Assembly: GCF_050920415.1 (NCBI RefSeq)
Contig: NZ_CP169309.1
Source of the DNA: Escherichia coli
Lineage (GTDB): Bacteria; Pseudomonadota; Gammaproteobacteria; Enterobacterales; Enterobacteriaceae
Length of the DNA: 64,000 nucleotides
Direction: 5' to 3' (one strand)
This document shows, one piece after another, positions 11,342 through 64,000 of this stretch. Under the pieces are notes generated by a model. It made no database searches. It was not told where the DNA came from and worked only from the letters and a program-made list of their open reading frames with translations. Each line of letters opens with the position of its first letter. The first letter of the stretch is position 1. Both the position numbers and the translations under genes were made by a program.

Positions 11342-11416
11342 AGTGAAATTTCACGAAGGCCAGGATAAAAGCCACCAGCCTATGGCCGGTGGCTTTGCAT
11401 CAATTCAGGAGAGGTT

Positions 11417-12553: not shown

Positions 12554-12739
12554 AAAAATCCCCATAAAAAACAACAGAGAGATACAGGTTTCCGACGGAC
12601 AACACTGCGGTGCTTTACTTTGATGGGGTCATTATAGTGAGCAGAATTAGTGCTGATTAGGGGGCGATTAATGCTAAGATTAATACCATATTGTTATAAA
12701 TTAATGCGGAGATTGCCGGCATGAAGGGGGGATGTTTCA

Positions 12740-13624: not shown

Positions 13625-14333
13625 ACGTTAACAACGACCGACTCTTCACTGTGCAATATTGTGTCAGGTAGTCACTCTGCGTTCAATTCCAGGGGCCGCT
13701 TTGAGCGAGAAAGAGCGGACTTATCTGTACAAGGGGACTATCCAGCAATGGAGATCACCCATAAGAAAAAAGTACCAGGCTCCCTCGACAACCTTCATCC
13801 GGGAATTTAGCCTCAATCAACATTTTTATATCTGTCAGGTTACTTCATTATGAAAACCGATCAATATCGTTGTTTTTGTTGCAATAGTAGAATACGCGTA
13901 TTTATTCCTCCATTTCTATTAATAACGGCCATAAACTGTTCACTTCACTGATATTTAAAATATGCATCCTTTTCCTGTTTTTCAAGTTGTTCAGCGGCGT
14001 AAGAAAAAGTATTAATTATGAATTCGACGATTTAACCATTTCTGTCTGATTGGTAATCATCCGTGATTAATGCTGGTCTATTGATTACGCCAGCATTAAC
14101 CGCTTAGGGATGTATTCTTCCTGATCATATACCTCCCTCGAAAAGAGAGAAAATAAAACTGTGTCCAATATTACTCTACCACTCCAGACCGAAGCATCGG
14201 TAGAATTAGCAGAACGACTGGTACAATAGATTGGGATAGCGTCATTTGTCAGGTATTCCATTGCCTGACAAATGACAATTTTGAGTCAATAGACGTGCTT
14301 CTTGATCATGTCTTAAAAATTATACCATGAGCC

Positions 14334-14564
14334 TTATGAAGCATCATTTTTACTGACTGGTGTTAACTTTGCTATCATATAAACTCTGTTCTTAAAAAAC
14401 GCGCCCAGAATTTTATATGATTTCCCTTGTTTTTCTGCCTGTAAAGAAATTTCTTTTTCAGTGCTGTTAATGGTTGAACCGACGGCAGTAATCGTTTTGG
14501 CGACGCTACTGAATGATAATAAAGACAGTGTAACCACAACAATTAAAGAACAGATAGTATTCAC
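14334..14564 (-). CDS. Small secreted protein, possibly YhcN/BhsA (DUF1471) family
   Basis: GTG start 7 nt after an AGGAG RBS; signal peptide; C-terminal pattern resembling DUF1471; lies in AT-rich DNA. Confidence 0.4.
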   Translation of the reverse strand: MNTICSLIVVVTLSLLSFSSVAKTITAVGSTINSTEKEISLQAEKQGKSYKILGAFFKNRVYMIAKLTPVSKNDAS

Positions 14565-14775
14565 GTTAATTCTCCTGACAATTGAGAGGGTGAGTTTTAT
14601 ATACATAGGTATTAAACATGAGTCATATTTACTCCAAGAGAAAATACTCCTTCTGTAATTAAACCTTCATCTCCTTCGGGGTGAGAAATACATAATGCAT
14701 CTTACTATGAAAAACAGGTGGATATAAATTTTCCTCCCTACCTATTTAATAAAACGTGAATATAAAAGTTATTCT

Positions 14776-15498
14776 TCAGTTTGCAGATGCAGTAGGTCTG
14801 ATGGTAATTTCGGTTGTATCAACGCTTTCGGGAGATTCAATAATATGCCTTACAGCACGGGCAATATCCGCGGGTTGAAGTGCAACAGAACGGTAGGCGT
14901 CCATTGACTTCATGGTTTCCACATGGGTCATGGTTGAAGCCAGTTCACTTTCTACAACCCCAGGATTTACGCAGGTCACACGGATTTTCGAGCTTTCCTG
15001 CCGTAAGCCATCAGAAATAGCCCGTACTGCAAATTTTGATGCGCAATAGACTGCGCCTGTGGGCACAACAGAAAGGGCACCAATAGAACCAAGATTGATT
15101 ATCTGACCGGAACCCTGTGCGTCCATCACCGGAAGTACAGCGCCAATTCCCCAAAGTACGCCTTTGATATTCACGTCAATAGTGAGCTCCCATTCATTTT
15201 GTTTTCCTGCTGCAAGCGGTGAAAGCGGCATAACGCCCGCATTATTGATAAGAACATAAACTCGCCCCCAGCTATCCAGCGCTGCTTGCACGAAATCTGC
15301 CATGGACTGTCGGTCTGTGACATCCAACTCCCGCGCTTTAGCAATTCCTCCTGCGCGGCAGATTTCTTTTGCAATGGCTTCGATACGCTCAAGTCTGCGT
15401 GCTCCCAGTAAAACCTTTGCACCTGTCGTTCCCAGCTCTCTGGCAATACCTTCCCCAATACCACTTGATGCGCCGGTGATTAATATGACCTTATCCAT
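14776..15498 (-). CDS. Short-chain dehydrogenase/reductase (SDR)
   Basis: TGASSGIG cofactor motif and YxxxK catalytic motif; start at ATG preceded by GAAGGAG. Confidence 0.85.
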   Translation of the reverse strand: MDKVILITGASSGIGEGIARELGTTGAKVLLGARRLERIEAIAKEICRAGGIAKARELDVTDRQSMADFVQAALDSWGRVYVLINNAGVMPLSPLAAGKQNEWELTIDVNIKGVLWGIGAVLPVMDAQGSGQIINLGSIGALSVVPTGAVYCASKFAVRAISDGLRQESSKIRVTCVNPGVVESELASTMTHVETMKSMDAYRSVALQPADIARAVRHIIESPESVDTTEITIRPTASAN

Positions 15499-15596
15499 TA
15501 CGTTCTCCTTCAAATGTGTTCGGAGAGATAATAGAACTTTATGATTGGTTCCAGTATCCTGCTTTCAATGTACTCAATGGTTAGCGGCATTAAACA

Positions 15597-16496
15597 ATGA
15601 AAATCGATCTTAATCTTTTACCCATTTTTATCGCGGTAGCAGAAGAGAGTAATTTCAGTAAAGCCGCCGCACGACTGGGCGTTACCCGTTCAGCGGTCAG
15701 TCAGGGAATAAGACGTCTTGAAGATGCATTCGGGACAATGCTTGTAATGCGGACCACGCGCTCAGTTAATTTGACGGAAGCGGGAGAACGGCTGCATAAA
15801 TCGTTGTCATTACCTTTATCCGGTATTGAGGCAGCGTTCGAAGAGATGGTCTCTGACCATGTACCACGTGGACATCTCAGAATCGCGGTGACGTCGATAG
15901 CAGAAGAATTTCTTTCAGGTCCGCTAATCGCTTCGTTTGCAGCTGCCAATCCAGCCGTTACGCTTGATATTGTTGTCACGGATGAGGAATTCGATATCGT
16001 TACCGCAGGTTACGATGCTGGCGTAAGGCTCGGAGAGGTCATTGAAAAAGACATGATTGCTGTTCCCCTTACCGGTAAGCAGCGTGAAATGGTCGTTGCC
16101 TCTCCCTCCTATCTCGCAGCCAACAGCACACCTGTTCATCCGCGCGAACTTGTGAATCATAAGTGTATCGGCTGGCGTCAGTCCCCGGAGGTTGCGCCTT
16201 ATCGCTGGCCATTTGAAGAAAACGGTAGAGCTTTCGACCTTGCGATTGAACCGCAGATTACGACGAATGATCTGCGTCTGATGTTGAGGCTGGCTCTTGC
16301 CGGCGGAGGAATAACAATTGCCACTCAGGAAACGTTCAGGCCATATATTGAAAGCGGTAAGCTTGTATCGCTGCTTGATGACTTTCTTCCACAATTTCCG
16401 GGCTTCTATCTGTATTTCCCACAGCGTCGCAATATTGCACCAAAGCTCCGCGCCCTGATTGACCACGTCAAGGAATGGCGGCAGCAATTGGCTTAA
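15597..16496 (+). CDS. LysR-family transcriptional regulator
   Basis: HTH (FSKAAARLGVTRSAVSQGIRRLE), 299 aa; divergent from the SDR gene. Confidence 0.85.
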   Translation: MKIDLNLLPIFIAVAEESNFSKAAARLGVTRSAVSQGIRRLEDAFGTMLVMRTTRSVNLTEAGERLHKSLSLPLSGIEAAFEEMVSDHVPRGHLRIAVTSIAEEFLSGPLIASFAAANPAVTLDIVVTDEEFDIVTAGYDAGVRLGEVIEKDMIAVPLTGKQREMVVASPSYLAANSTPVHPRELVNHKCIGWRQSPEVAPYRWPFEENGRAFDLAIEPQITTNDLRLMLRLALAGGGITIATQETFRPYIESGKLVSLLDDFLPQFPGFYLYFPQRRNIAPKLRALIDHVKEWRQQLA

Positions 16497-16623
16497 ATGT
16501 CTGCACCTGCACTGCCTGATGTCAGAACAGTATTTTGAGAAATTGCCAGGGTTACAATGGCACAAATATGGCACAGGAGGAAAACGTGGTGTAATTGAAT
16601 ATGAGGTAACTACTTGATTTAAA

Positions 16624-30865: not shown

Positions 30866-31582
30866 TTAATTCGGATAGACAAAATCACGAATTTTCTGCG
30901 CGATCTGTTTATTCAGTTGACAAATTCGGGCCTCGGTTAGCCCTAATACCAGCGCAATTTCTTTGAGATTCATCTCATGCTGGTAATACATGGCGAGGAT
31001 CAGTTGCTCTTTTTCACTTAATTGTGAAAGCGCCTGTTGCAGCATTTGCTGAGTAATAAACTGATCTTCCAGTTCCCTGCCAGCAAGCGGAATGCCAGGC
31101 CCTTCGCCGTTCAGCAGTTCGTCAAGGCTGGCGAGCGTTTCCGCTCCTTCCAGTTGCTGATATTCGAGATAATCTTCATGCGAAATCCCTTCCACAGCCA
31201 GTTCTGACCACTCCGGTTCGTGCCCCAGTTTCTTACGCGTTTCGCGTATCAGGTCTTTCATCTGATGATATTTCTGCCGCAGCTGGCGCGGTCGCCAGTC
31301 GAGAGCGCGCAGCTCATCCAGGATCGCACCGCGAATACGGTGCACAGCATAGCCCGCAAAACCTTCATCCGGCAGCCCGTAGCGGCGAATGGCGTTAAGC
31401 AGCCCCATTAACGCCGTTTGTTCCATATCCTGACGGTCAATAATGCAGTTACATTGCGGGGCAAGTTGCCGCACCACTTTACGCACCAACGGTAAATAGG
31501 CCTGCAAATAGTGGCTCTCCTGCTGCGCGGTTAATACCGGCGCGGCAGCAAATTCTTCTGACTCGAATACGTCCTGTAGCAT
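30866..31582 (-). CDS. lafS: Lateral-flagellar sigma factor (FliA / sigma-28 family)
   Basis: 238 aa with sigma-70 regions 2 and 4; C-terminal HTH (LKEIALVLGLTEARICQLNKQ). Confidence 0.8.
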   Translation of the reverse strand: MLQDVFESEEFAAAPVLTAQQESHYLQAYLPLVRKVVRQLAPQCNCIIDRQDMEQTALMGLLNAIRRYGLPDEGFAGYAVHRIRGAILDELRALDWRPRQLRQKYHQMKDLIRETRKKLGHEPEWSELAVEGISHEDYLEYQQLEGAETLASLDELLNGEGPGIPLAGRELEDQFITQQMLQQALSQLSEKEQLILAMYYQHEMNLKEIALVLGLTEARICQLNKQIAQKIRDFVYPN

Positions 31583-33868: not shown

Positions 33869-35185
33869 TTACGCGAATGCCGCCATGCTGGCTTTCATGG
33901 TGTACACCTCAACCAGCGTGTTGGTGTACTCCTCCAGATAACGGTCGTAGTTGGCGTTATAGGTATCGGTAAGCTGATCGCCTTCGTCCTGAATTTTGCT
34001 CATCTGATCGTCAATGTTCTGCTGGCGCAGGGTGATGATGCCGTTGCTGGAGTCCGTGTAGGTGTTAATCAGATCGTCCATCTGTGCCACCATGCTGTTG
34101 TCGCCAACGAAAATAGAGGTCAGACCGTCAGGATTTTTCGCCATTTCGTCGTTGAACTGGTCGGAGTCAATCTGTAAGTGGCCGTGAGAATCAAGCGTGA
34201 TGCCATAGTCAACAATCGACACCCCGTTGTAGCTGGCATGGGCGATATCATCGAGCTGGTTCGCCAGTGAGCTGAGTCCGGCATCACCCGCAAATACCCC
34301 GGCGCTGGTACTGTCATCACCGTGGGTGGTCAATGAATCAACCGTATCAATCAAGGTGTTATAGGCATCAACAAAGGTCTGTACTTTCTCCTGGCTGGCG
34401 CTGGAATCTTCGCTGATGTTAAAGGTAGTGAGATCGCTGTCAGAATCGCTGACTTCGGTAAAAGTCATGGTGACGCCGGGGATCACATCATCAAAGGTGT
34501 TGCTGCTATTGGTGATGGCGGGCCCCGTGGCACTGCCGAGATGAATAATCGCGTCCTGAGCGGAGGAAACATCCGTAGCAACGGGCGCGCTGGCGCTGTC
34601 GTTGCTGGCATCATGCCCCGTTACGCTCACCGAAAACGCGCTCTGCGCCCCGGTGCTATCCGAGGTGAGCATAATGGTGGTGGTGCCATCGGTTTTTACC
34701 AGTGCCGCTGAAACGCCGGGGTTATCGTCAGAGTCGTTAATCGCATTCACCAGCTCGCTGGCGTCGATAAAACCGTCGCCGTCACCGTTCTGATCCGCCG
34801 CCGCCAGGTCGATATCCATGGTGCTGTCGCCCATCGTCAGCTCGAAGGTGCCGGTAGCGGAAAAGGCGTCGTCGCCCATACTGAACGTGGTCTGCTGCCC
34901 CTGCGCCAGTTGCTCAACGAAAAATGAGTAGCTTCCCGCCTGTGCCTGCGAGTTAGCGGAAACGGTCGCTGAGTCATTATTGCTGGTGGCGGCAAATGTT
35001 ACCGGGCCGTCGGTATCGCTGTTCAGCGCATCGACGGCACTTTGAAAGTCGCTCAACGCCGAGCTGAGCGTATCCAGGCCGCTGCTTTCGGCATCCAGCT
35101 CCGTTTGCTTCTCCTGCAAATTTGCCGCCTGAGTGGCGACATCCGCATAAGCGATTTCCTGGGCAATAGTTCTTGGGTTAATCAT
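33869..35185 (-). CDS. lafB: Filament cap protein FliD-like (HAP2)
   Basis: 438 aa with FliD-type N- and C-terminal helical regions. Confidence 0.85.
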   Translation of the reverse strand: MINPRTIAQEIAYADVATQAANLQEKQTELDAESSGLDTLSSALSDFQSAVDALNSDTDGPVTFAATSNNDSATVSANSQAQAGSYSFFVEQLAQGQQTTFSMGDDAFSATGTFELTMGDSTMDIDLAAADQNGDGDGFIDASELVNAINDSDDNPGVSAALVKTDGTTTIMLTSDSTGAQSAFSVSVTGHDASNDSASAPVATDVSSAQDAIIHLGSATGPAITNSSNTFDDVIPGVTMTFTEVSDSDSDLTTFNISEDSSASQEKVQTFVDAYNTLIDTVDSLTTHGDDSTSAGVFAGDAGLSSLANQLDDIAHASYNGVSIVDYGITLDSHGHLQIDSDQFNDEMAKNPDGLTSIFVGDNSMVAQMDDLINTYTDSSNGIITLRQQNIDDQMSKIQDEGDQLTDTYNANYDRYLEEYTNTLVEVYTMKASMAAFA

Positions 35186-35216
35186 TGATGACTCCGGTTA
35201 ACGATGTCAGGTTATT

Positions 35217-35233
35217 GGCAAAAGGCGTGCCAA
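35217..35233 (-). promoter_or_regulatory. Sigma-54 (RpoN) promoter upstream of lafB
   Basis: Minus strand reads TTGGCACGCCTTTTGCC (TGGCAC-N5-TTGC); about 30 nt upstream of the lafB ATG, which has a GGAG RBS. Confidence 0.6.
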
Positions 35234-35367
35234 TATTTTTTATGTTAATAATCAATAATTTGAAAAATGGGCGGAAAGCGTGTTTCCGGTTCGGCGGAAA
35301 AGTGCCTGCCGCAAAAAGCACAACACCGCCCGCAGGCGGTATTGAGACTGATGACAAACGCAACACT

Positions 35368-35466
35368 GCCTGATGCGCTGCGCTTATCAGGCCTACAAGG
35401 TTTCTGCAATATATTGAATTTGCAATATTTTGTAGGCCGGATAAGGCGTTCACGCCGCATCCGGCA
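35368..35466. repeat. BIME: two inverted REP units between lafA and lafB
   Basis: gcctgatgcgctgcgcttatcaggcctac ... gtaggccggataaggcgttcacgccgcatccggca. Confidence 0.85.
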
Positions 35467-35474
35467 ATCCCGCA

Positions 35475-36389
35475 CTACTGCAGCAGGCTGGAAACCATGC
35501 TGGACATGCTGTTGGACTGTTTCAGCATGGTGATACCGGTCTGCATCAGCACCTGCTGTTTGGTCATGTTGGACGCTTCCGTCGCGTAGTCGGTATCCAT
35601 AATGTTGCCGATAGCGACTTCGGTGTTGTCCTGCATGCTGGTCAGGTTGTTGGCAGTGTCGTTCAGACGGTTAATAGACGCACCCAGCTTGGATTGGATC
35701 TGCGAAACATCATCCATCGCGGTAGAAATGCTGGTAATCATCTGGTTAGCTGAGCCAGACGCAGTCAGTTCAGTACCGCCAGACACGCCTGCGGTGCCCG
35801 TGGTGTCAGCCTGATCCGCACTAAAGGAGTTGCTGATAGCAGAAAGATCCGTCACCAGCGTGTTCAGTTGGCTTGAAATGTTCACGGTCATGGTATCGGA
35901 AGATTCCGCTCCCACCTGGAAAGTCACCGCGCTCTGGAACAGGCCGTCAGTACCGGTGTTGCTGGTGCCGGAAACACCGAACAGGTTGGTGCCGCCGTAA
36001 GTGGTGTTTTGCAGCATGTCAGACATCTGCTGGCCCAGTTCGTCGTATTCGTCCTGCATCGCCTGCAGGTCATCGTCGCTGTAGGTGCCGTTCGCTGCCT
36101 GAGTTGACAGGTCTTTCATACGACCCAGCACATCAGACATTTCGTCGAACATGCTGTCAGCGGTTTGCAGCATCGCCGTTGCATCATTAATGTTGCTCAG
36201 TGCCACCCCCATACCGCTGGACTGTGCAGTCAGACGGTTAGCAATCTGTTTGCCTGCGGCGTCATCGGCAGAAGAGTTAATCCGGTTACCTGTTGCCAGG
36301 CGTTCCATAGATGTAGACAAAGAAGAACTGCTTTTGCTGATTGCATTAACGGCGGCCATTGAGGCGTTATTGGTGTTAATAGATAACAT
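35475..36389 (-). CDS. lafA: Lateral flagellin
   Basis: Start at ATG preceded by AAGGAG; 304 aa; conserved flagellin N- and C-termini with Ser/Thr-rich centre; the 26 extra codons in the ORF track are upstream read-through. Confidence 0.9.
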   Translation of the reverse strand: MLSINTNNASMAAVNAISKSSSSLSTSMERLATGNRINSSADDAAGKQIANRLTAQSSGMGVALSNINDATAMLQTADSMFDEMSDVLGRMKDLSTQAANGTYSDDDLQAMQDEYDELGQQMSDMLQNTTYGGTNLFGVSGTSNTGTDGLFQSAVTFQVGAESSDTMTVNISSQLNTLVTDLSAISNSFSADQADTTGTAGVSGGTELTASGSANQMITSISTAMDDVSQIQSKLGASINRLNDTANNLTSMQDNTEVAIGNIMDTDYATEASNMTKQQVLMQTGITMLKQSNSMSSMVSSLLQ

Positions 36390-36874
36390 GATACTGCTCC
36401 TTGGGATTAATCGTTTTCGTTTCGATACCCTGTAAAAACGACACCTCAGGCGCAAACTTAAAATCACTATGAAAAAAATTTCGCCACGTATTATCCGATG
36501 CCACTTTTAGCTAAAAAAAGCAGAGGTTAAATTCAGATAAAAAGATTATTAGCAATATCTGCCACATGGCCAGGTATCAAAATATGTCTTTATCAATTGC
36601 TTGATATAGTTAAGATTGTCATCAATTAACGCGTTTTCTTCACAATGTACTGATGCCAAAATTTACATTGCGTTGCAAATAGTACACATTTGGCTATTGT
36701 ACCTGTCCTGTCATTTCGTTACATTCCCACGCCATATAGTGATTAAGAATAATCCTATTACCATAAAATATTAATTATCACGCAGAAAAATCATCTTCTC
36801 AGGGACGTATAAGACTGTGCTTTATGTAAAGCACTATCAGGAACCATTTATCCCTTGCTAAGGTAAACTCAACT

Positions 36875-37717
36875 ATGAGTATTATTATCAACAACTGGCG
36901 GATGGACCCGTCACTCAATGCCTTAATACATTGCGAAACGGGTGAAACACGTCGTCTCGGCGAATACCATTTTATTTTGCTGGAAACATTAGCAAAAAAT
37001 GCCGATGTGGTTTTATCGCGATCTTATTTATGTGCCGAAGTATGGAAGAACCGCATTGTCGGCGGTAACAGCCTGCCGACGGCGATCCATGCGTTGCGCG
37101 TTGCTATCGACGATGATGGCAAACAACAGAACATTATCAAAACCATCCCGAAAAAAGGTTACTTGTGCAATAAAGAGTATGTGTCTTTGCCGGAATCATC
37201 GCCTGCGGAAAAGCTGATGATTACCGACCAGGTACAGAAAACTGTGCCAGAAAAGATATCTTCGACAACACCGCCTTTACCTGGTAGAAAAAAATATAAA
37301 GAAATGATAGGGCTGGCGTTGAGCGCAGCTGTTATTTTTGTTGGCTCGACCGTGGGCTATTCACACTTGAAAAGTACACCTGACGCCCCGCAACTGGTAA
37401 AAGAGTCAATTAACAGTCCAAGAATAAAAATATTTCATTTAACTTCTGCTGGAGAAAATACTTCCGTACCGTTACTATCACAAACCCTCGCACCAGGAAA
37501 AGACAAACTCGATAATTTATTGTCAGCGCATAATATGACAATGACAACCTATTATAAATATGTTCGTAACCGACTGGAGAGTGATATTGTTCTGCGCAAC
37601 CAGTGCAATGGTAGCTGGCAATTAACCTTTAATGTGGAAGGCTGGCAGAACAGTGATATTAATAGCACGATGTATCAGAATTTAGAGAAGTTGTTAAATA
37701 CTGTGCAGAAGTGCTGA
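36875..37717 (+). CDS. lafZ: Membrane-anchored transcriptional regulator, ToxR/CadC-like winged helix plus TM and periplasmic domain
   Basis: N-terminal OmpR/PhoB-type winged-helix region, one TM helix (MIGLALSAAVIFVGSTVGY), AT-rich gene; divergent from lafA. Confidence 0.7.
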   Translation: MSIIINNWRMDPSLNALIHCETGETRRLGEYHFILLETLAKNADVVLSRSYLCAEVWKNRIVGGNSLPTAIHALRVAIDDDGKQQNIIKTIPKKGYLCNKEYVSLPESSPAEKLMITDQVQKTVPEKISSTTPPLPGRKKYKEMIGLALSAAVIFVGSTVGYSHLKSTPDAPQLVKESINSPRIKIFHLTSAGENTSVPLLSQTLAPGKDKLDNLLSAHNMTMTTYYKYVRNRLESDIVLRNQCNGSWQLTFNVEGWQNSDINSTMYQNLEKLLNTVQKC

Positions 37718-37730
37718 TGAATACGAATAT

Positions 37731-37769
37731 ATGCCGGATGCGACGCTAAACGCGTCTTATCCGGCCTAC
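37731..37769. repeat. REP element between convergent lafZ and lafW
   Basis: atgccggatgcgacgctaaacgcgtcttatccggcctac. Confidence 0.75.
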
Positions 37770-37775
37770 CGATAA

Positions 37776-38753
37776 TTACCCCAATAAATTCCTCACCGTC
37801 TGGCTGGAAATTCGCGCCTGACCGTTCACCGCCTGCAATAAAACCTGATAGTTATGATTGGCGCTGTCGAGCACACCGCCGAGATTTTCCGACGCCTGTA
37901 CCGCACTTTCTGTCTGCGGGAAGCGGGACATGCCGTCGATCAACTGGCGGGCCTTTTCCTGCTGCACAGCCATCTTCGCGCGCTGCTGATTAATGTTTTC
38001 TAACGTCTGAGAAATCCCCGCCCCGCCCTGTTGCAGGCTTTGAGCTAACCGCTCAGCCTCAGAGGGTTCGGCAAAGGTTTTTAGTGGCATAAACGCTGAT
38101 TTATCGCCATCGGTGCGCACGCTTAACGTGCGTTCAATGTCAGGCCACTGTTTTTCGGTGGTGGAGAAGCTGATGCCATCCGCTTGCTGATGCAGCTGCA
38201 CGCCTACGCGGCGCAGGGCGTTGGTCAGCCGTGTCTGGTACTGCCCGGCGTTATCATCCTCAGACAGCATCACCGCCGAAAGCTGGGTCTGCCGCCCGTC
38301 AGAAACGCTGAACATCCGCGTTCCCAGTGTGGGGTTGTTGACGAGATTCGCCAAATCCGGCGAGTGAAAGGTCACCCGCGCTTCCCCCTGCAACACCGGC
38401 TGCAACTGGCGGTCCACCGCGCCGCCGGAAAGTGCGGTGCGTTTGTCCAGCATCTGCGTGAGCGCCGTACTCTGCGCCTGCCCGCCCTTACGCAGGCTGT
38501 GACGATAATCGAGCAACTGCTGTTCCAGTTGCCCGAGATAGTGATCCGCCTGCTGCAAGGTGGTGAGCTGGTCGTTAAGCTGCACGCTGTAACGCTGCGG
38601 GCGAGTGGTAATCAGCGGCGAGGCCGGATATTCACTCGCCGTCGCCGGGAGCTTTTGCCGCACCGCCTGAGTGGGCGCAACGGTTGACGACGATACCGCA
38701 GCGCTATGCGCACCGCCGGTGGCGAGTGATGAAGATGTAAGTCCGACCTGCAT
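37776..38753 (-). CDS. lafW: Flag-2 protein of unknown function, LafW position
   Basis: 325 aa, Ser/Ala/Gln-rich; immediately downstream of lfgL in the same orientation; symbol assigned by synteny only. Confidence 0.5.
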   Translation of the reverse strand: MQVGLTSSSLATGGAHSAAVSSSTVAPTQAVRQKLPATASEYPASPLITTRPQRYSVQLNDQLTTLQQADHYLGQLEQQLLDYRHSLRKGGQAQSTALTQMLDKRTALSGGAVDRQLQPVLQGEARVTFHSPDLANLVNNPTLGTRMFSVSDGRQTQLSAVMLSEDDNAGQYQTRLTNALRRVGVQLHQQADGISFSTTEKQWPDIERTLSVRTDGDKSAFMPLKTFAEPSEAERLAQSLQQGGAGISQTLENINQQRAKMAVQQEKARQLIDGMSRFPQTESAVQASENLGGVLDSANHNYQVLLQAVNGQARISSQTVRNLLG

Positions 38754-38769: not shown

Positions 38770-39597
38770 TTAGAGAACGCTGAATAAATTCAACTCACTC
38801 ACTTTCGAGTAAGTCTTGAGGGTAGCTTCCATTGCCACTTCCAGTCCGGTAAAGGTGATCGACGCAGGGCCGTAATCGAGATCCTGCAATGAACCAATCA
38901 ACTCATCATTAGAGGTAGAGATATCGGTCTGCGCATCGCTCAGCATCGACATGGTGTTTTGTGTCTCGCCGAGCGACGCAATCGAGGCGTTGAGGTCGTC
39001 CGAGGCGGTGTCCACCACATTAACGGCGTTTTGAATATCGCTTTGTACCTGCGGATCTGCCGGGTCAACGTTAGGGTCTTGCAACTCCTGAGAGAGCGAA
39101 TTGAGCGTGTTGAGCACATCTAAATTACTTCCGAAGAAATCGCTCACCGCCACGTTGGTATCCACTTCAACGCCGTTCGACACCGTCGTCTGGCGATGGT
39201 CGCTGTTACCCTGATAGCTGTAGCTATCGGTCACGCCATCACCGTCATCGTCCAACGCCACAATCGGCGGCTGATCGTTGATGGTGCCGCCAAAGACGTA
39301 ATGCCCGTCTTCATCCTGATAGTTGAGCGCCGCCAGCAGGCTGTTGTTGACGCCATCGAGAATCGACTCCTGCTGGCTTAACCCCGCCGACGCAGAGTCA
39401 ATATTGCTTTGATACTGCTCAATCGCCGACTGCTGGCGGTTCAACTGAGTGATGCGTGTGGCGGCGATAGGATCATCCGATGGCTGCAAAATTTCCTTGC
39501 CGGTTGCCATCTGCTCGACCACGTGCGCCAGTTCGCCAGAAAGATTATTAAAACTTTGCGTCATCGAGACGTAGGTTTGTTGAGTGGTTACTCGCAT
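38770..39597 (-). CDS. lfgL: Hook-filament junction protein FlgL-like (HAP3)
   Basis: Start at internal ATG (MRVTTQQTYVSMTQS...) matching FlgL N-termini. Confidence 0.8.
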   Translation of the reverse strand: MRVTTQQTYVSMTQSFNNLSGELAHVVEQMATGKEILQPSDDPIAATRITQLNRQQSAIEQYQSNIDSASAGLSQQESILDGVNNSLLAALNYQDEDGHYVFGGTINDQPPIVALDDDGDGVTDSYSYQGNSDHRQTTVSNGVEVDTNVAVSDFFGSNLDVLNTLNSLSQELQDPNVDPADPQVQSDIQNAVNVVDTASDDLNASIASLGETQNTMSMLSDAQTDISTSNDELIGSLQDLDYGPASITFTGLEVAMEATLKTYSKVSELNLFSVL

Positions 39598-39611
39598 TTT
39601 CGCGCTCCCGC

Positions 39612-40988
39612 TTAGCTGCACATTTCCAGCACCGAATCGAAAATCTCGGCCCCGGCGGAAATGACTTTCAGATTGGCTTCATAAATTTGTTGATAGGTGA
39701 TCAGGTTCACCGCCTCTTCGTCCATGCTGACGCCGCTGACGCTGCTCTGCTGGTTTTGCGCCTCAGAATAGACATTGGACGCAGCGGTCACTTCGGTCTG
39801 GTTTTGCTGAGTGTAAATGCCGATATTGCTGATGATTGACGAGCACGCTTGCCCGACCGTCACGCTGCCGAGGTTGCCTATCTCCAACGGCTCAGTGGAG
39901 ATGTTGATCAGCGCCTGCAGGTTGTCGCTGTTGCCGCTTTCATCCGGCGAACTGGAGAACGCCAGTTCATCGGCGGTGATATCCGGGTTAACGGTCAGCG
40001 GGCCATCGGCATTACTGGCATCGTAAATAAACAGCGGCTCGCCGGGGTTACCGTTGAGATCGTAGCCCTGCGCCAGCTGGTTGTTGACCGCATCGGCAAA
40101 CTGCGACGCCATGCTGTTGATGGTGTCGGTCAGCGGCGTCAGCACGTCGTTTTGATAATCAAAAAGTGCGCCTAATGAACCGCCGGTGTCGGTGGTCATG
40201 GTCGAGGTCGTTCCGGCAAAGGTCAGTGTCATCGTTGGCGTGCCATCGGCGTTGGTTTCCAGCGCAATGGTCGAGCTTTGCTGCCCGCTCACCAGCGGCT
40301 GACCGTTTTGCAGGGTGACGTTGTAGTTGCCCTGGTCGTCGATATTGACCTGCACATCCATCATCCCGCTGAGTTCTTCCACCATCTGGTCGCGGGCATC
40401 GTACAGCGCAGAGGCGTTATCGCCGTTGGCTTCGGCCTGGGCGATTTGCTGGTTATAGCTGGCGATGCCGCTGGTGAGGGTGTTAATTTGCGACACCATC
40501 GCCTGCTGCTGGCTGATGATTTCCGTGCTTTGCGAGTCGATGTAATCGAGCGTGTTATCGATACGCAACGACAGCGCCCCGGCTTCGCTGATCACCTGCT
40601 CGCGCAGGGCAGAATCATCGGGGCTGGTGGTCGCTTCGTTGAGGGCCGCGAAAAAGTTATCGAACCCGCCGCTCAGGCTGCTGTTATCGTCGCTCAATAC
40701 CGCTTCCAGTTGCGTGAGATACCCTTGCTGGGTGTTGTAATAGCCGTAATCGCTGGCGGCATACCACACCTGATTCACCTGATACTGGTTGGAGACGCGA
40801 CGAATGCTGTCGACCTGCACACCGTTTCCGGCGCTGTTCGGCGAACCGCCGCTGGCACCGATGGTGCTGATCTCCGCCACCTGGCGGGTGTAGCCCGTGG
40901 TCATGGCGTTAGCGGTGTTTTGCGCCGTGACGTTCAGCTCCACCTGCGCCGTTGATGCGCCGCTGTAGCCGATGTTAATCATGTCCAT
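39612..40988 (-). CDS. lfgK: Hook-associated protein FlgK-like (HAP1)
   Basis: 458 aa, FlgK-type N-terminus (..TAQNTANAMTTGYTRQ..). Confidence 0.85.
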   Translation of the reverse strand: MDMINIGYSGASTAQVELNVTAQNTANAMTTGYTRQVAEISTIGASGGSPNSAGNGVQVDSIRRVSNQYQVNQVWYAASDYGYYNTQQGYLTQLEAVLSDDNSSLSGGFDNFFAALNEATTSPDDSALREQVISEAGALSLRIDNTLDYIDSQSTEIISQQQAMVSQINTLTSGIASYNQQIAQAEANGDNASALYDARDQMVEELSGMMDVQVNIDDQGNYNVTLQNGQPLVSGQQSSTIALETNADGTPTMTLTFAGTTSTMTTDTGGSLGALFDYQNDVLTPLTDTINSMASQFADAVNNQLAQGYDLNGNPGEPLFIYDASNADGPLTVNPDITADELAFSSSPDESGNSDNLQALINISTEPLEIGNLGSVTVGQACSSIISNIGIYTQQNQTEVTAASNVYSEAQNQQSSVSGVSMDEEAVNLITYQQIYEANLKVISAGAEIFDSVLEMCS

Positions 40989-47739: not shown

Positions 47740-47776
47740 TTCTTGCGCCACTCCCGCTTCAATCCGCATACGCTAA

Positions 47777-47792
47777 GCAATCGCTGTGCCAA
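47777..47792 (-). promoter_or_regulatory. Sigma-54 (RpoN) promoter of the lfgB-L operon
   Basis: Minus strand reads TTGGCACAGCGATTGCT (TGGCAC-N5-TTGC) about 40 nt upstream of the lfgB start. Confidence 0.6.
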
Positions 47793-48746: not shown

Positions 48747-50171
48747 ATGTCTGAATTTGAATTACTCGTGAAAGATCTTCTTTTAAAATCAGAAGAAGAC
48801 GAGAAAAAGCGACAAGAAAAAGATCGAGAATTAATTTCAAAGGTCCTTGAAATCTATGATCAAAAATATGTTGCAGAACTCTTACGAAAACTAGGAAAAA
48901 ATGAATGGAGCAGAGAAACACTTAACCGTTGGATAAATGGTAAGTGCAATCCTAAGCAATTAACTTCTGCGGAGGAAACTTTACTCCGCAAGATGCTTCC
49001 AGAACCTCCTGAACATCATCCTAACTACACATTTCGTTTTATTGATTTATTCGCAGGGATTGGTGGTATTCGTAAAGGTTTCGAAAACATTGGTGGACAG
49101 TGTGTTTTTACCAGCGAATGGAATAAAGAAGCGGTAAGAACCTACAAAGCTAATTGGTTTAATGATGAACTAAATCATAAATTTAATCTTGATATACGAG
49201 AAGTCACTTTAAGTGATAGAGATGATGTTTCCGAAGTAGAAGCCTATAATCATATAGACAAAAATATTCCAGATCATGATGTCCTTCTGGCCGGTTTTCC
49301 ATGTCAGCCCTTTAGTCTGGCTGGGGTAAGCAAGAAAAACTCTCTGGGGCGTGCACATGGTTTTGAATGTGAGGCACAAGGAACACTATTTTTTGATGTC
49401 GCTCGGATTATTAAATCAAAAAAACCAGCTATTTTTGTGCTTGAGAATGTGAAAAACCTTAAAAGTCATGATAAAGGTAAGACTTTTAAAGTCATCATGG
49501 AAACACTCGATGAATTAGGATATGAAGTCGCCGATGCTGGTGTTACTGGCTCAGATGATCCCAAAATTATAGATGGAAAACATTTTTTACCCCAACATCG
49601 TGAGCGTATAGTGTTGGTAGGATTTCGTAGAGATCTGAATATTCACAAGGATTTCACGTTACGAAACATTAACCGCTTTTACCCTCAAAACAGGCCAACA
49701 TTTGGTGAATTATTAGATCATGATGTTGACGATAAATATATTTTGACTCCAAGGTTATGGGAATATCTTTACAATTATGCAAAAAAACATGCAGCAAAAG
49801 GCAATGGGTTTGGTTTTGGTTTAGTGGATCCTAAAAATCCAGATAGTATCGCAAGGACTCTGTCTGCTCGTTATCATAAAGATGGCTCTGAAATATTGAT
49901 TGATCGTGGCTGGGATAAGGCTGTCGGTGAAATTGACTTTAGTAATCCAGCGAATCAAGAGCATCGTCCAAGAAGACTGACACCTCACGAATGTGCCAGG
50001 CTAATGGGTTTTGAAAAACCAGGGGGAAGACCTTTTAGAATACCTGTATCGGATACACAAGCCTATAGACAATTTGGGAACTCAGTTGTTGTTCCAGTAT
50101 TTGAAGCTGTAGCAAGATTACTAGAACCATATATACAAAAGGCAGTCAATATGCATATTATTAACGATTAA
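48747..50171 (+). CDS. DNA cytosine-5 methyltransferase, EcoRII/Dcm family (CCWGG specificity predicted)
   Basis: Motifs [30 protein letters not shown]; near-colinear with the M.EcoRII/Dcm sequence as I recall it; GGGGA RBS before the ATG; AT-rich relative to flanks. Confidence 0.9.
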
Positions 50172-50194
50172 TAATAATTAATTTTCACTATTGT

Positions 50195-50217
50195 GAGGCC
50201 TTTTTATTAAAGGCCTC
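50195..50217. terminator. Bidirectional hairpin terminator between the convergent M and R genes
   Basis: gaggccttt-ttatt-aaaggcctc flanked by A/T runs. Confidence 0.5.
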
Positions 50218-50257
50218 TAAATATATAATCATGAGTTTTTACAAGTATGTTTTTATA

Positions 50258-51463
50258 TTATACAAAATCTTCATAAAGCGTTATTAACTGTGTAATAAAA
50301 CCATCTAATGTTAATATTTCCTCCCTGATTTCCTCCGGGTATTTTTTATGAAGAGGGGAAGGTACAACCAAGGTGACACCTTCAGCTCTCATTTCGTTAA
50401 ATTGAGCAACAGAGACACCCTCTTGCAAGGTAAACAAATATATCTTGTTGATTTTATTTGCTTCATTAAGCGCCTGTCGCCACCGATCCTTACATGTTGT
50501 TTTTACAGCAAGCATACGGAGTTTTTCTCTTGGAAAGTGATCATCATGGTAAGCTGCCGCTGATGGGAAAAGAAAATCGGGTTTCTTTTTTCCTTCAGTA
50601 ATACATTGAGTAGCAAAATGATGCAGTCCATGCTCAATAAAAATTTGCTCAAGATGTAGCTCCAGTGATTTCCCGGCTCGAGATTTTCTTCTATTACTAA
50701 CAGAGTTAGCCATAGCTATAAAATCATCTACAGAACCAAATCCTTGACGGATGATGTCCAGTACGTGAATTTCTTCAACCATTAGAAAGAGATCATATTC
50801 AATACGGCGGCGTTCTAAAAGTTGGTCATCTGGACTGGTTACGCCTGTTGGGTAATAACCTGCCGCATATTGGATAATATCTAAGCCAGAAGGAAAACTA
50901 TGTTTCCAGCTTTCCGGAATAACATATTCCTTTTGAGAGATTTTTGGCCTTGATGCGAGTACACCAAGTATTTCACTGGCAGGCCCAAACATTAAAGTTC
51001 CTGGAATGATCTCCCCAACAGCTGATTCCAGTACATCCTCTTCTTCTGGGCTTACACAAACCCATACATCAACACTTTTGCTGTCTCTCCCAGGCTCATG
51101 TTCAAACGCAAGCACAGACAAAGCACCTGTATTTTCCGGATCTTGTAGGGGACTGCCAGCCCCCCACCGAGTGATACGTTTTTCATTTCTTGTTTGCCCG
51201 AAATACTTATTATTGTAGTAAATAGCGCGAACCTCACTGTCTACACATTCATGAGAGGAATAAGTTGCGCGCAATAAAACCGAAGGATTTTTTTCTGACG
51301 TATGATCTATAGATGGGAAAAGTTCACCGACGATACCGGAAGGGATATATACCCCCACTTGATGCCCTCCTGTTGCACCAGTGTCGTTTGCTGAAAGACG
51401 TTTGATATAGAGATAATTGTTACCACCGACCTTATCAAGCAGCCAATCTTGTAATCCTGACAT
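50258..51463 (-). CDS. Type IIE restriction endonuclease, EcoRII family
   Basis: 401 aa; long conserved blocks matching R.EcoRII as I recall it (YIKRLSANDTGATGGHQVG, RNEKRITRWG, SPLQDPENTGAL, SVSNRRKSRAGKSLELHLE, KPDFLFPS, LRMLAVKTTCKDRWRQ); convergent with the methyltransferase. Confidence 0.85.
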   Translation of the reverse strand: MSGLQDWLLDKVGGNNYLYIKRLSANDTGATGGHQVGVYIPSGIVGELFPSIDHTSEKNPSVLLRATYSSHECVDSEVRAIYYNNKYFGQTRNEKRITRWGAGSPLQDPENTGALSVLAFEHEPGRDSKSVDVWVCVSPEEEDVLESAVGEIIPGTLMFGPASEILGVLASRPKISQKEYVIPESWKHSFPSGLDIIQYAAGYYPTGVTSPDDQLLERRRIEYDLFLMVEEIHVLDIIRQGFGSVDDFIAMANSVSNRRKSRAGKSLELHLEQIFIEHGLHHFATQCITEGKKKPDFLFPSAAAYHDDHFPREKLRMLAVKTTCKDRWRQALNEANKINKIYLFTLQEGVSVAQFNEMRAEGVTLVVPSPLHKKYPEEIREEILTLDGFITQLITLYEDFV

Positions 51464-63607: not shown

Positions 63608-64000
63608 TCAGGAGAAAACTTCGATACCGTGCTTGCGCATGGAGGCCAGTCGATAGCGCAGGGCGCGCGGGGTAATGCCTAACAAGTCGGCGATTTTGCT
63701 GCGGTTGCCCTGATATTTACGCATCAGGTCGGCGATATATTGATACTGCGCGCTTCGTCCGTGCTGGCCTAAATCACCGGTTTCGGCAATGTGGACGGCG
63801 GGCTGAACAGGCCATTGCAGATCGCTGTGGTCTGCAATATCGGTGTCCGGCAGGCCTAATGCATCCGGGTAAATTACGCCGTCGCGATTTAAAATCATTC
63901 CCCGCTGAATGGCGTTTTCCAGTTGACGCACGTTACCGGGCCAGCGGTAATTAAGCAGCGCGCGGCGGGTGGATTCGGACAGGGTGATATTTTTCACCAG
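63608..64000 (-). CDS. lafK: Sigma-54-dependent transcriptional activator, 3-prime fragment (5-prime end outside the window)
   Basis: C-terminal AAA+ signature (PGNVRQLENAIQRGMIL) and Fis-type HTH (KIADLLGITPRALRYRLASMRK); open to the window edge. Confidence 0.75.
   Translation of the reverse strand: MVKNITLSESTRRALLNYRWPGNVRQLENAIQRGMILNRDGVIYPDALGLPDTDIADHSDLQWPVQPAVHIAETGDLGQHGRSAQYQYIADLMRKYQGNRSKIADLLGITPRALRYRLASMRKHGIEVFS

What the first reader, a model, noticed from the sequence alone, without database searches (positions are those of the whole stretch)
36390..37717. ToxR/CadC-like membrane regulator (lafZ) divergent from the flagellin gene across an AT-rich intergenic region
lafZ encodes an N-terminal winged-helix DNA-binding domain, one TM helix and a periplasmic domain, the architecture of one-component envelope-signal transcription factors. 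It is markedly AT-rich, and its roughly 480 bp intergenic region shared with lafA is AT-rich. It may couple an external or surface signal directly to lateral flagellin expression, a layer absent from the primary flagellar system.
Basis: partly seen in the sequence, partly recalled or inferred. Interest (0 to 1): 0.35.

Follow-up and report, generated by a model that had tools for sequence, protein, structure and literature searches.

The report
Membrane-tethered regulator LafZ, missing its partner
lafZ in the E. coli second (lateral) flagellar gene cluster really does encode a ToxR/VtrA-type membrane-spanning transcription factor, a gene named in 2005 but never tested, and E. coli has lost the small partner gene that accompanies it in almost every other genus.

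Summary
The window is an E. coli Flag-2 locus. lafZ (36875-37717, +) encodes 280 aa with four parts:
- a ToxR-like winged helix (Pfam PF00486, E 1.4e-13; best solved relative is the ToxR DNA-binding domain);
- a disordered tether;
- one TM helix;
- a 115-aa periplasmic domain.

lafZ is 42% GC and the 485-bp spacer to lafA is 35% GC, against 52% for the window.

New findings:
- In 68 of 73 non-Escherichia loci a ~155-aa gene overlaps the lafZ 3' end, in the position ToxS and VtrC occupy.
- Escherichia and Pseudocitrobacter lack this partner gene. A REP element sits in its place, yet lafZ stays under purifying selection.
- lafA has its own conserved sigma-28-type promoter, so direct LafZ control of lafA is unproven.
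- In several genera lafZ, its partner, lafK and lafS survive together without flagellar structural genes. This suggests LafZ belongs to the regulatory circuit.

The gene was already named and annotated as a putative regulator. Its function is untested. Interest is moderate.

The parts
36875..37717 (+). lafZ coding sequence, 280 aa plus stop
36875..37174 (+). Cytoplasmic OmpR/ToxR-type winged-helix DNA-binding domain, residues 1-100. Invariant residues include W57, R60, N65-S66-L67, L74-R75, T90, P92 and G95-Y96.
   Evidence: Pfam PF00486 E 1.4e-13. PDB phmmer: ToxR 8b4b E 3e-8, CadC 5ju7 E 2e-6. pLDDT above 90. Invariant columns.
37214..37285 (+). Disordered, fast-evolving juxtamembrane tether, residues 114-137
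   Evidence: pLDDT below 50. The linker plus TM segment has dN/dS 0.4-0.7. Its length varies widely between homologues.
37292..37363 (+). Single transmembrane helix, residues 140-163, in N-in orientation (GRKKYKE lies on the cytoplasmic side)
37367..37714 (+). Periplasmic beta2-alpha-beta3-alpha sensor domain, residues 165-280, with invariant Cys244 (37604-37606) and Cys280 (37712-37714)
36390..36874 (.). 485-bp AT-rich (34.9% GC) divergent spacer between lafA and lafZ
   Evidence: This spacer is on average 18.5 GC points below its flanks in 48 of 48 loci.
36435..36461 (-). lafA sigma-28-type promoter: -35 TTAAGTTT (36461-36454), 11-nt spacer, -10 GTCGTTTT (36442-36435). It is followed by the AAGGAG ribosome site at 36402-36397.
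   Evidence: Invariant in alignment A4. It lies at a near-fixed distance from the lafA ATG (72-109 nt) in 36 of 49 loci. It is the only perfect copy in the window. The sigma-28 assignment rests on resemblance to the E. coli FliA consensus TAAAGTTT-N11-GCCGATAA, which is my own knowledge.
36542..36558 (+). Conserved box B2, AAGATTATTAGCAATAT
   Evidence: Nearly invariant from Escherichia to Citrobacter and Phytobacter. Its 7-mers occur in 17-18 of 18 loci, against a maximum of 8 in shuffles.
36610..36629 (+). Conserved box B3, TTAAGATTGTCATCAATTAA. It is a direct repeat of B2 (AAGATTRT...AAT) 70 bp away.
   Evidence: (repeat family D2)
36662..36680 (+). Conserved box B4, TTTACATTGCGTTGCAAAT. 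It reads as two 10-bp half-sites resembling OmpR-type tandem sites, and is the candidate operator for a winged-helix protein.
   Evidence: Present in 18 of 18 Escherichia and Citrobacter loci. Unique across the window and L082 at up to 3 mismatches. The resemblance to OmpR sites is my own knowledge and no binding was tested.
36673..36700 (+). Putative sigma-70 lafZ promoter: -35 TTGCAA (36673-36678), 16-nt spacer, -10 TATTGT (36695-36700)
   Evidence: Both hexamers are conserved in A4. This is inference only: the match is weak (8 of 12) and the promoter scan did not call it.
36714..36725 (+). Conserved box B5, TTTCGTTACATT. It repeats the TTACATT core of B4.
37733..37765 (.). REP hairpin in the 58-bp lafZ-lafW gap. 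It occupies the slot where other genera carry the partner gene.
   Evidence: Folding energy -25 kcal/mol, z -4.2. Weak Rfam naRNA4/REP match, E 0.05. No + strand ORF of 20 aa or more starts here.
35475..36389 (-). lafA, the lateral flagellin gene, divergent neighbour of lafZ
37776..38753 (-). lafW-position gene (325 aa), convergent neighbour of lafZ. It has no Pfam or NCBIfam family.

Best explanation
lafZ encodes a bitopic inner-membrane transcription factor of the ToxR/VtrA class. Residues 1-100 form a cytoplasmic ToxR-like winged helix. Residues 114-137 are a flexible tether. Residues 140-163 cross the membrane once. Residues 165-280 form a small periplasmic beta2-alpha-beta3-alpha domain. 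That domain most resembles the VtrA bile-sensor domain and carries two invariant cysteines placed as in ToxR.

In nearly every other enterobacterial genus the gene is half of a two-gene 'co-component' cassette. A ~155-aa secreted or membrane-anchored partner gene overlaps the lafZ 3' end. The Escherichia/Pseudocitrobacter lineage has lost the partner, and a REP element sits in its place. It still keeps both LafZ domains under purifying selection. All of the above is shown.

The rest is inferred. LafZ is probably a signal-input regulator of the Flag-2 circuit rather than a dedicated lafA activator. Tethered at the membrane, it would read an envelope cue through the periplasmic domain, for example disulfide state, oligomerisation, pH or a lipid. 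It would bind AT-rich DNA in its own upstream region; the best candidate is the OmpR-like tandem site TTTACATTGC/GTTGCAAATA, which overlaps a putative lafZ promoter. It would counteract silencing of this AT-rich segment. It would feed, directly or indirectly, into the cascade LafK (sigma-54), then LafS (sigma-28), then lafA.
For: Architecture:
- Winged helix and relatives.
- Cys244 and Cys280 are invariant, and the last cysteine lies 0-5 residues from the C-terminus in 45 of 47 homologues.

Partner gene:
- It is present in 68 of 73 non-Escherichia loci and overlaps lafZ by roughly 20-115 nt.
- Its two sequence classes are homologous (hhalign probability 96.8%, E 2e-10).
- It is absent from all 8 Escherichia/Pseudocitrobacter loci and from the whole window.
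- None of the 120 listed partner-family clusters (of 127) is labelled Escherichia coli.

Selection: dN/dS is 0-0.06 for the DNA-binding domain and 0.05-0.21 for the periplasmic domain.

Link to the regulatory circuit:
- lafZ lies in Flag-2 between lafW and lafA in about 60 loci.
- In Winslowiella, Erwinia mallotivora, Silvania and Kosakonia a compact island holds lafS-like, lafZ-like, partner and lafK-like genes, flanked by housekeeping genes with no flagellar structural genes within 4 kb. A sigma-54-type site lies upstream of lafS in three of these four.
- No sigma-54 or sigma-28 site precedes lafZ, whereas lafB and lfgB have sigma-54 sites and lafA a sigma-28 site.
- Flag-2 is silent in laboratory culture of E. 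coli EC958, so an unknown inducing signal is expected (PMC4637896).
Against: - No experiment on LafZ was found in the literature searched.
- The target DNA is unknown. Box B4 could equally be bound by OmpR or another winged-helix protein.
- No motif is shared between the lafZ spacer and the lafK upstream region.
- VtrA needs VtrC, and ToxR is destabilised without ToxS. A partner-less LafZ might therefore be inactive or constitutive.
- Erwinia species keep lafZ-like plus partner with no Flag-2 genes nearby, so the family can act outside flagella.
Confidence: 0.5

Rival explanations
1. LafZ binds the shared spacer and directly activates, or is required for, lafA transcription. This would tie flagellin synthesis to a surface or envelope signal independently of the LafK/LafS hierarchy.
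For: - The divergent lafA-lafZ arrangement with a 360-1050-bp spacer is conserved in 49 loci.
- Conserved boxes B2 and B3 lie about 115-200 nt upstream of the inferred lafA start.
- ToxR-like regulators usually act on an adjacent gene (my own knowledge).
Against: - lafA has a complete, position-fixed sigma-28-type promoter within 75 nt of its ribosome site.
- lafZ-like genes and their long AT-rich upstream region persist in loci with no lafA at all.
- Boxes B2-B5 are conserved only within the Escherichia/Citrobacter group.
Confidence: 0.2
2. In E. coli lafZ is a functionless remnant. Having lost its obligate partner, and sitting in a locus that is usually silent or damaged, it no longer regulates anything.
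For: - The partner is absent.
- VtrA/VtrC is an obligate heterodimer and ToxS protects ToxR (PMC9214523, PMC7265457).
- LafA is not detected in EC958.
- Flag-2 loci often carry deletions (PMC6993521).
- This window itself has a 102-nt deletion in lfgL.
Against: - dN/dS is far below 1 in both the DNA-binding and periplasmic domains across partner-less lineages, with dN up to 0.2.
- A full-length match is present in 1261 of 1275 Flag-2-positive complete E. coli genomes.
- The cysteine pair and every winged-helix signature residue are retained.
Confidence: 0.15
3. LafZ mainly controls genes outside Flag-2, such as envelope, adhesion or other surface-lifestyle genes. It is only genetically linked to the flagellar cluster.
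For: - lafZ-like plus partner cassettes lie among housekeeping genes in about ten Erwinia-type loci with no Flag-2 genes within 4 kb.
- Regulator-only islands exist.
- Other members of the superfamily control secretion systems, adhesins and porins (PMC9214523).
Against: - In about 60 of 80 species the gene sits inside Flag-2 at a fixed position.
- It is co-retained specifically with the two Flag-2 regulators LafK and LafS.
- No non-flagellar target is suggested by anything in the window.
Confidence: 0.15

Closest known systems
VtrA/VtrC bile-acid receptor of Vibrio parahaemolyticus, the founding 'co-component signal transduction system' (Li 2016 PMC4933562; Kinch 2022 PMC9214523)
   Same: - In the LafZ family at large, a downstream gene overlaps the 3' end and encodes a protein of about 155 aa with an N-terminal signal or anchor.
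   Different: - The E. coli gene has no partner.
- No sequence similarity is detectable outside the DNA-binding domain.
- The partner family's fold was not predicted here, and it hits no Pfam, NCBIfam or PDB sequence.
- The genomic setting is a flagellar locus, not a type III secretion island.
- LafZ has a conserved cysteine pair. From memory, and not checked here, VtrA does not.
ToxR/ToxS of Vibrio
   Same: - The closest solved DNA-binding domain by sequence (8b4b, E 3e-8).
- Two periplasmic cysteines with the second at the extreme C-terminus. ToxR has C236 and C293 of 294 residues, which is my own knowledge; the disulfide is described in PMC7265457.
   Different: - No ToxS-like gene in E. 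coli.
- Only about 30% identity in the winged helix and none beyond it.
- The targets are unknown.
CadC of E. coli, the one-component pH/lysine sensor
   Different: - CadC has a periplasmic sensor of about 320 aa with a second, helical subdomain; LafZ has only 115 aa.
- The NCBIfam CadC equivalog scores 35 bits against a cut-off of 400, matching the N-terminal region only (residues 35-133).
- LafZ is not next to cadBA.
YqeI/YqeJ, GrvA/FidL, MarT/FidL, PsaE/PsaF and TcpP/TcpH (enteric co-component cassettes, PMC9214523)
   Same: The same gene architecture, with overlapping reading frames in the LafZ family at large.
   Different: - LafZ against E. coli YqeI shows only 24% identity over 119 residues of the DNA-binding region and adjacent linker (E 0.009).
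- The partner profile against YqeJ gives no signal (hhalign probability 0.2%).
- The LafZ periplasmic domain keeps the C-terminal helix that most of these are reported to lack.
LafZ as defined by Ren et al. 2005 and De Maayer et al. 2020 (PMC6993521)
   Same: The same gene: between lafW and lafA in Flag-2 cluster 3, annotated as a putative transmembrane regulator with no equivalent in flag-1.
   Different: Those papers treat the lafW-lafZ slot as variable region 'VR2', carrying cargo hypothetical proteins averaging one protein and 0.6 kb. Here that slot is shown to hold, in most genera, a conserved gene that overlaps lafZ.

Membership tests
ToxR-like membrane-bound transcription factors | N-terminal cytoplasmic OmpR/PhoB-type winged-helix DNA-binding domain | tested here: met
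   Pfam PF00486, residues 25-97, E 1.4e-13. ToxR and CadC DNA-binding domains are the best PDB sequence hits.
ToxR-like membrane-bound transcription factors | No receiver domain, so activity is not controlled by phosphorylation | tested here: met
   The winged helix starts at residue 1. The only Pfam hit is Trans_reg_C. Response-regulator models match only their C-terminal output region.
ToxR-like membrane-bound transcription factors | A single transmembrane helix with the N-terminus inside and the C-terminus in the periplasm | tested here: met
   There is one hydrophobic segment, at 144-162, with lysine and arginine on its N-terminal side. AlphaFold2 gives a helix at 140-163. All 47 homologues have one such segment. 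Topology is predicted, not measured.
ToxR-like membrane-bound transcription factors | Binds DNA and activates transcription while membrane-bound | not testable with these tools
   Only candidate sites B2-B5 were identified.
VtrA/VtrC-type co-component systems (PMC9214523) | Periplasmic domain of the transcription factor has the VtrA/ToxR beta2-alpha-beta3-alpha fold | tested here: met
   [not shown]
VtrA/VtrC-type co-component systems (PMC9214523) | An adjacent downstream gene on the same strand, usually overlapping, encoding a periplasmic partner | tested here: not met
   In the window the gap to lafW is 58 bp and holds a REP element. No ORF of 20 aa or more starts there and no partner homologue occurs in the 64 kb. 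In the wider LafZ family the feature is met in 68 of 73 non-Escherichia loci.
VtrA/VtrC-type co-component systems (PMC9214523) | The partner adopts a lipocalin-like eight-stranded barrel | not tested
The partner family has no Pfam, NCBIfam or PDB sequence match and no hhalign signal to YqeJ.
VtrA/VtrC-type co-component systems (PMC9214523) | A periplasmic cysteine pair forming an intrachain disulfide, as in ToxR | tested here: inconclusive
   C244 and C280 are invariant in 47 homologues. Disulfide formation cannot be tested here.
CadC (lysine decarboxylase activator) | A large two-subdomain periplasmic pH/lysine sensor, and a full-length match to the CadC equivalog model | tested here: not met
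   NF007540 scores 34.8 bits against a cut-off of 400, matching residues 35-133 only. The periplasmic part is 115 aa.
Flag-2 LafZ orthologous group (Ren 2005; PMC6993521) | Encoded in Flag-2 cluster 3, between lafW and lafA, divergent from lafA | tested here: met
   Annotated neighbours in NZ_CP169399.1. The same synteny holds in about 60 loci.
Flag-2 LafZ orthologous group (Ren 2005; PMC6993521) | Sequence identity to E. coli 042 LafZ (CAH19147.1) | not tested
   The reference sequence and the 2005 paper are not held. Indirectly, the region is 90-95% identical in DNA to 1238 E. coli genomes. The dominant E. coli protein cluster is 92% identical (P0006, 2295 members).
OmpR/PhoB two-component response regulators | N-terminal receiver domain with a phospho-acceptor aspartate | tested here: not met
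   There is no receiver domain, and the protein has a TM helix and a periplasmic domain instead.

The most novel reading that the evidence does not exclude
LafZ and its overlapping partner may be the missing signal-input module of the enterobacterial lateral-flagella hierarchy. It would be a VtrA/VtrC-type lipid or envelope sensor acting above LafK and LafS. E. coli would carry a naturally partner-less version that has evolved to signal through the bare VtrA-like domain. In some genera the LafZ/partner, LafK and LafS circuit would have outlived the flagellum and been re-used to control other genes.
Probability: 0.2. Interest if true: 0.6.

Novelty: new member of a known kind. Interest (0 to 1): 0.38.

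Why it matters
Roughly a quarter of complete E. coli genomes (1275 of 5426) carry Flag-2. Nobody knows what switches it on: LafA is undetectable in laboratory cultures of the pandemic ST131 strain EC958. LafZ is the only protein in the locus built to read the outside of the cell, so it is the obvious handle on that question.

Three results make the question testable:
- Placing LafZ in the VtrA/ToxR co-component superfamily points to candidate signals: bile salts or lipids, pH, and disulfide state.
- It also shows that the 'VR2 cargo' slot of Flag-2 is in most genera a conserved partner gene.
- It offers a natural experiment, because the E. coli protein lacks the partner and the Citrobacter and Enterobacter proteins have it.

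The scope is niche. The gene was named twenty years ago, and nothing here shows an unusual mechanism.

Tried and rejected
- Partner family identity: Pfam, NCBIfam and a PDB profile search found nothing beyond a spurious match to a TM segment.
- Homology of LafZ and its partner to E. coli YqeI/YqeJ: only a weak match in the DNA-binding domain, and none for the periplasmic domain or the partner.
- A motif shared between the lafA-lafZ spacer and the lafK upstream region: none beyond chance 8-9-mers. Box B4 has no second copy in the window or L082.
- Known RNA families in the spacer: none. Only REP-derived families matched, outside the spacer.
- The terminator-like call at 36441-36453 is rejected. 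It is the spacer of the lafA sigma-28 promoter.
- The sigma-70 promoter calls of the generic scan do not coincide with conserved blocks and were not used.
- The convergent 330-350-aa ORF next to the Erwinia-type cassettes is not a LafW homologue (HMM E above 1). In L029 it has no family. In other genera the ORF at that position is LafK-like.
- My first LafA query was one base out of frame. The LafA columns are therefore invalid; one search corrects them.
- The afdb50 fold library was unavailable. Model coordinates could not be read to measure the Cys-Cys distance.
- Ren et al. 2005 is not held.
- Whether the Yersinia pseudotuberculosis cassette BZ17_3283/3282 of Kinch et al. is the Flag-2 pair could not be checked, because no supplements are held.
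Full report
**What the window is.** The region 36300-37800 is 100% identical to E. coli strain MFDS1022581. A match is present in 1275 of 5426 complete E. coli genomes, mostly at 90-95% identity. The annotation there shows the Flag-2 (lateral flagella) locus between dinB and yafL. The local order is lafU-motA-sigma(lafS)-fliL-fliK-...-fliS-fliD-lafA, then a 'winged helix-turn-helix domain-containing protein', then a hypothetical protein in the lafW position, then flgL-flgK and so on. From 16601 onward the window is 99.97% identical to that genome. It ends inside lafK.

**The observation.** The ORF 36875-37717 (+) encodes 280 aa.
- lafA is 35475-36389 (-), so the shared spacer is 36390-36874, 485 bp.
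- GC content: lafZ 42.2%, spacer 34.9%, window 52.4%, lafA 53%, lafW 59%.
- Pfam finds Trans_reg_C at residues 25-97 (E 1.4e-13).
- The best solved relatives by sequence are the Vibrio cholerae ToxR DNA-binding domain (E 3e-8) and then CadC (E 2e-6).
- One hydrophobic segment (144-162) follows GRKKYKE.
- The full-length AlphaFold2 model (47-sequence alignment, mean pLDDT 87.5) has four parts. They are a winged helix at 1-100, a disordered stretch at 114-137, a helix at 140-163 and a folded domain at 173-274.

**What is already known.** lafZ was named by Ren et al. 2005, a paper that is not held. De Maayer et al. 2020 describe LafZ as a 'putative transmembrane regulator' with no orthologue in the primary flagellar locus. 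They report only 38.9% average identity among Enterobacterales and use LafZ as a marker for Flag-2 (PMC6993521). I found no experimental study of it in the library. In E. coli ST131 EC958, LafA was undetectable in LB broth or soft agar at 28 and 37 °C (PMC4637896). The inducing condition for Flag-2 in E. coli is therefore unknown.

**The periplasmic domain.** A search of 1.8 billion representative proteins gave 43 clusters at E ≤ 1e-30.
- In an alignment of 47 full-length members, down to 28% identity, two classes of position are invariant. One is the winged-helix signature residues (W57, R60, N65-S66-L67, L74-R75, T90, P92, G95-Y96). The other is two periplasmic cysteines, C244 and C280.
- Every member has one TM segment.
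- The last cysteine lies 0-5 residues from the C-terminus in 45 of 47 members.
- Residues 165-280 modelled with pLDDT 92 as beta-beta-alpha-beta-beta-beta-alpha.
- Foldseek against the PDB was weak: the best E-value was 3e-3, with VtrA at 0.011.

The case for homology rests on the combination. It has a tethered ToxR-like winged helix, the same fold in the same compartment and a ToxR-like cysteine pair. It also has the gene arrangement described next.

**A partner gene that E. coli lacks.** A scan of one genome per species returned 80 loci across Enterobacterales.
- In 68 of the 73 loci outside Escherichia and Pseudocitrobacter, an ORF of 150-200 aa (most 150-165 aa) on the same strand starts before the lafZ stop. 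The overlap runs from about 20 to 115 nt in the longest-ORF calls and is 22-29 nt in many loci.
- The five exceptions are truncated lafZ genes or contig ends.
- In Citrobacter youngae, lafZ ends ...AAT GAA ATG CCA AAA TGC AAA TAA (N E M P K C K *). The partner reads A|ATG AAA TGC CAA... (M K C Q...) in the next frame. Enterobacter cloacae shows the same arrangement.
- The partners have an N-terminal signal or anchor and a conserved (Q)xG(F/Y)YDL motif. Their two sequence classes are homologous (hhalign 96.8%, E 2e-10).
- They hit no Pfam, NCBIfam or PDB sequence.
- All named database members are 'hypothetical protein', none of them labelled Escherichia coli (120 of 127 clusters listed).

[quoted passage not shown] 2022, PMC9214523). 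That paper does not mention flagella. De Maayer et al. counted this slot as variable region VR2, carrying on average one hypothetical 'cargo' protein.

**The partner-less lineage.** All eight Escherichia and Pseudocitrobacter loci, with LafZ of 280-282 aa, lack the gene.
- In the window, 58 bp separate the lafZ stop from the lafW stop. They hold a REP hairpin (37733-37765, -25 kcal/mol, z -4.2).
- No ORF of ≥ 20 aa starts there.
- No partner homologue exists anywhere in the 64 kb.
- The E. coli C-terminus reads NTVQKC instead of the family's NEMxxC. This fits release from the overlapping-frame constraint.

Since every other branch has the partner, loss in this lineage is the parsimonious reading.

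**Is the orphan still functional?** I computed Nei-Gojobori dN/dS between the window and five (four for LfgK and LafW rows using L004) other partner-less loci.

| Region | dN/dS |
|---|---|
| Whole lafZ | 0.09-0.28 |
| DNA-binding domain | 0-0.06 |
| Periplasmic domain | 0.05-0.21 |
| Tether plus TM | 0.4-0.7 |

Both functional domains are under purifying selection, which argues against a dead remnant. A side observation: synonymous divergence of lafZ between E. coli and Pseudocitrobacter is saturated (dS 2.3-3.1). The flanking lafW, lafB and lfgK have dS 0.05-0.48. The lafZ segment therefore has a different history from its neighbours.

**The spacer.** I aligned 13 spacers from Escherichia to Enterobacter.
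- The first feature is a sigma-28-type promoter for lafA. It reads TTAAGTTT (36461-36454), then 11 nt, then GTCGTTTT (36442-36435). An A-tract lies upstream and AAGGAG downstream.
- The same motif class lies 72-109 nt upstream of the lafA ATG in 36 of 49 loci.
- It has only one perfect copy in the window.
- Four blocks are conserved in all 18 Escherichia/Citrobacter-group loci, against at most 8 in shuffles.
  - B2 is AAGATTATTAGCAATAT (36542-36558).
  - B3 (36610-36629) is a direct repeat of B2 lying 70 bp away.
  - B4 is TTTACATTGCGTTGCAAAT (36662-36680).
  - B5 is TTTCGTTACATT (36714-36725).
- From my own knowledge of OmpR sites, B4 reads as two 10-bp half-sites of the TTTACA/GTTACA type. 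It overlaps a conserved TTGCAA-N16-TATTGT that could be the lafZ promoter.
- B4 is unique in the window and in the rest of the locus.

These are candidates only. Nothing identifies the protein that binds them, and they are not conserved in more distant genera.

The window has sigma-54-type sites upstream of lafB (35232) and lfgB (47791) and inside lafS (31097). It has none upstream of lafZ. lafZ therefore does not look like a class 2 or class 3 gene of the hierarchy.

**Context elsewhere.**
- About 60 of the 80 loci keep the Flag-2 arrangement. lafA (and usually lafB) is divergent upstream, and lafW-lfgL-lfgK is convergent downstream.
- About ten Erwinia-type loci hold only lafZ-like plus partner among housekeeping genes.
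- In Winslowiella arboricola, Erwinia mallotivora, Silvania hatchlandensis and Kosakonia oryzendophytica the cassette sits in a compact island.
  - It lies between a LafS-like sigma factor (48-55% identity to E. coli LafS) and a LafK-like sigma-54 activator (56-59%).
  - The flanks are transporters and metabolic genes.
  - Three further genera show partial versions.
  - The lafS-lafZ spacer is again long and AT-rich in most of these islands. In three of the four complete islands (not Kosakonia) it carries a sigma-54-type site upstream of lafS.
- AT-richness is a property of the whole family. lafZ is 6.8 GC points below its flanks in 79 of 80 loci, and the lafA-lafZ spacer 18.5 points below in 48 of 48. 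It is therefore not evidence of recent transfer into E. coli.

Keeping all the Flag-2 regulators together after the structural genes have gone suggests that LafZ works within that regulatory circuit. It is hard to reconcile with a protein whose only job is lafA.

**Mechanism.**
- Shown: the architecture, the fold, the cysteine pair, the partner and its loss, purifying selection, and the lafA promoter.
- Inferred: LafZ reads an envelope cue through its periplasmic domain. It binds AT-rich DNA near its own gene, probably autoregulating and opposing silencing. It feeds the LafK-LafS-lafA cascade.

I put about 0.5 on this. The alternatives are direct lafA control at 0.2, a functionless remnant at 0.15, and mainly non-flagellar targets at 0.15.

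**Verdict.** The finding is real and correctly read at the level of architecture. The gene is already named and annotated, so the bare observation is not new. The new elements are the placement in the VtrA/ToxR co-component superfamily, the reinterpretation of 'VR2', the natural loss of the partner in E. coli, and the regulator-only islands. These make it a modestly interesting, testable lead on how Flag-2 is switched on.

Noticed in passing
window 39327-39335 (inside lfgL, ORF 38770-39621, - strand): Compared with the otherwise 99.97%-identical genome NZ_CP169399.1, the window lacks 102 nt (34 codons) of the flgL-like hook-filament junction gene. The deletion is in frame, and the two alignment segments overlap by 9 nt at the junction. 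The ORF stays open, but the protein is shortened (LfgL only 83-89% identical to relatives).
   Followed up: partly
L035, L040, L045, L065 (partial versions in L030, L053, L057): These are 'regulator-only' islands. A LafS-like sigma factor, lafZ-like, partner and LafK-like genes sit together, flanked by housekeeping genes, with no flagellar structural genes within 4 kb. A sigma-54-type site lies upstream of the sigma gene in L035, L040 and L045. What they regulate is unknown.
   Followed up: partly
L029, L031, L033, L034, L047, L048, L052, L054, L058 (Erwinia and relatives): lafZ-like plus partner cassettes with no Flag-2 gene nearby. Each has a convergent 330-350-aa ORF; the L029 copy has no Pfam or NCBIfam family, and none of them matches a LafW HMM.
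   Followed up: partly
window 35178-35475 (lafA-lafB spacer): The spacer is made of REP/BIME elements (Rfam ES036 above its gathering score at 35389-35431; naRNA4 at 35435-35501). The 91-aa 'hypothetical protein' annotated there in RefSeq (35178-35453) is probably not a gene.
   Followed up: partly
window 35217-35232, 47776-47791 and 31082-31097 (all - strand): Sigma-54-type promoter matches (TGGCAC/T-N5-TTGC) lie upstream of lafB and lfgB and inside lafS upstream of the motA-like gene. This fits LafK-dependent class 2 operons.
   Followed up: no
window 36875-37717 compared with its flanks; L007, L008: lafZ is a mosaic segment. Between E. coli and Pseudocitrobacter its synonymous divergence is saturated (dS 2.3-3.1), while neighbouring lafW, lafB and lfgK have dS 0.05-0.48. 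The window's own lafZ allele is rare: only 3 genomes match at 99% or above, and 1238 match at 90-95%.
   Followed up: partly
window about 48747-51463: A type II restriction-modification pair (cytosine methyltransferase and endonuclease) is inserted between the flgA-like and flgM-like genes of Flag-2. This is inferred from colinearity with the annotated genome.
   Followed up: no
window 1-16600: Similarity to NZ_CP169399.1 stops next to a tRNA-Thr gene and a tyrosine recombinase. This suggests that a different integrated element lies upstream in the window's strain.
   Followed up: no
L082 7219-7604 (lafK-lfiM spacer, just beyond the window end): The lafK upstream region is 42% GC and contains REP-like palindromes. 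It has no sigma-54 or sigma-28 match and no copy of the lafZ-spacer boxes. The window itself is cut inside lafK at 63608-64000.
   Followed up: partly
window 37776-38753 (lafW): The protein called a 'putative hook-associated protein' in the literature has no Pfam or NCBIfam match and is annotated as hypothetical. It is nevertheless conserved next to lafZ in most Flag-2 loci.
   Followed up: no
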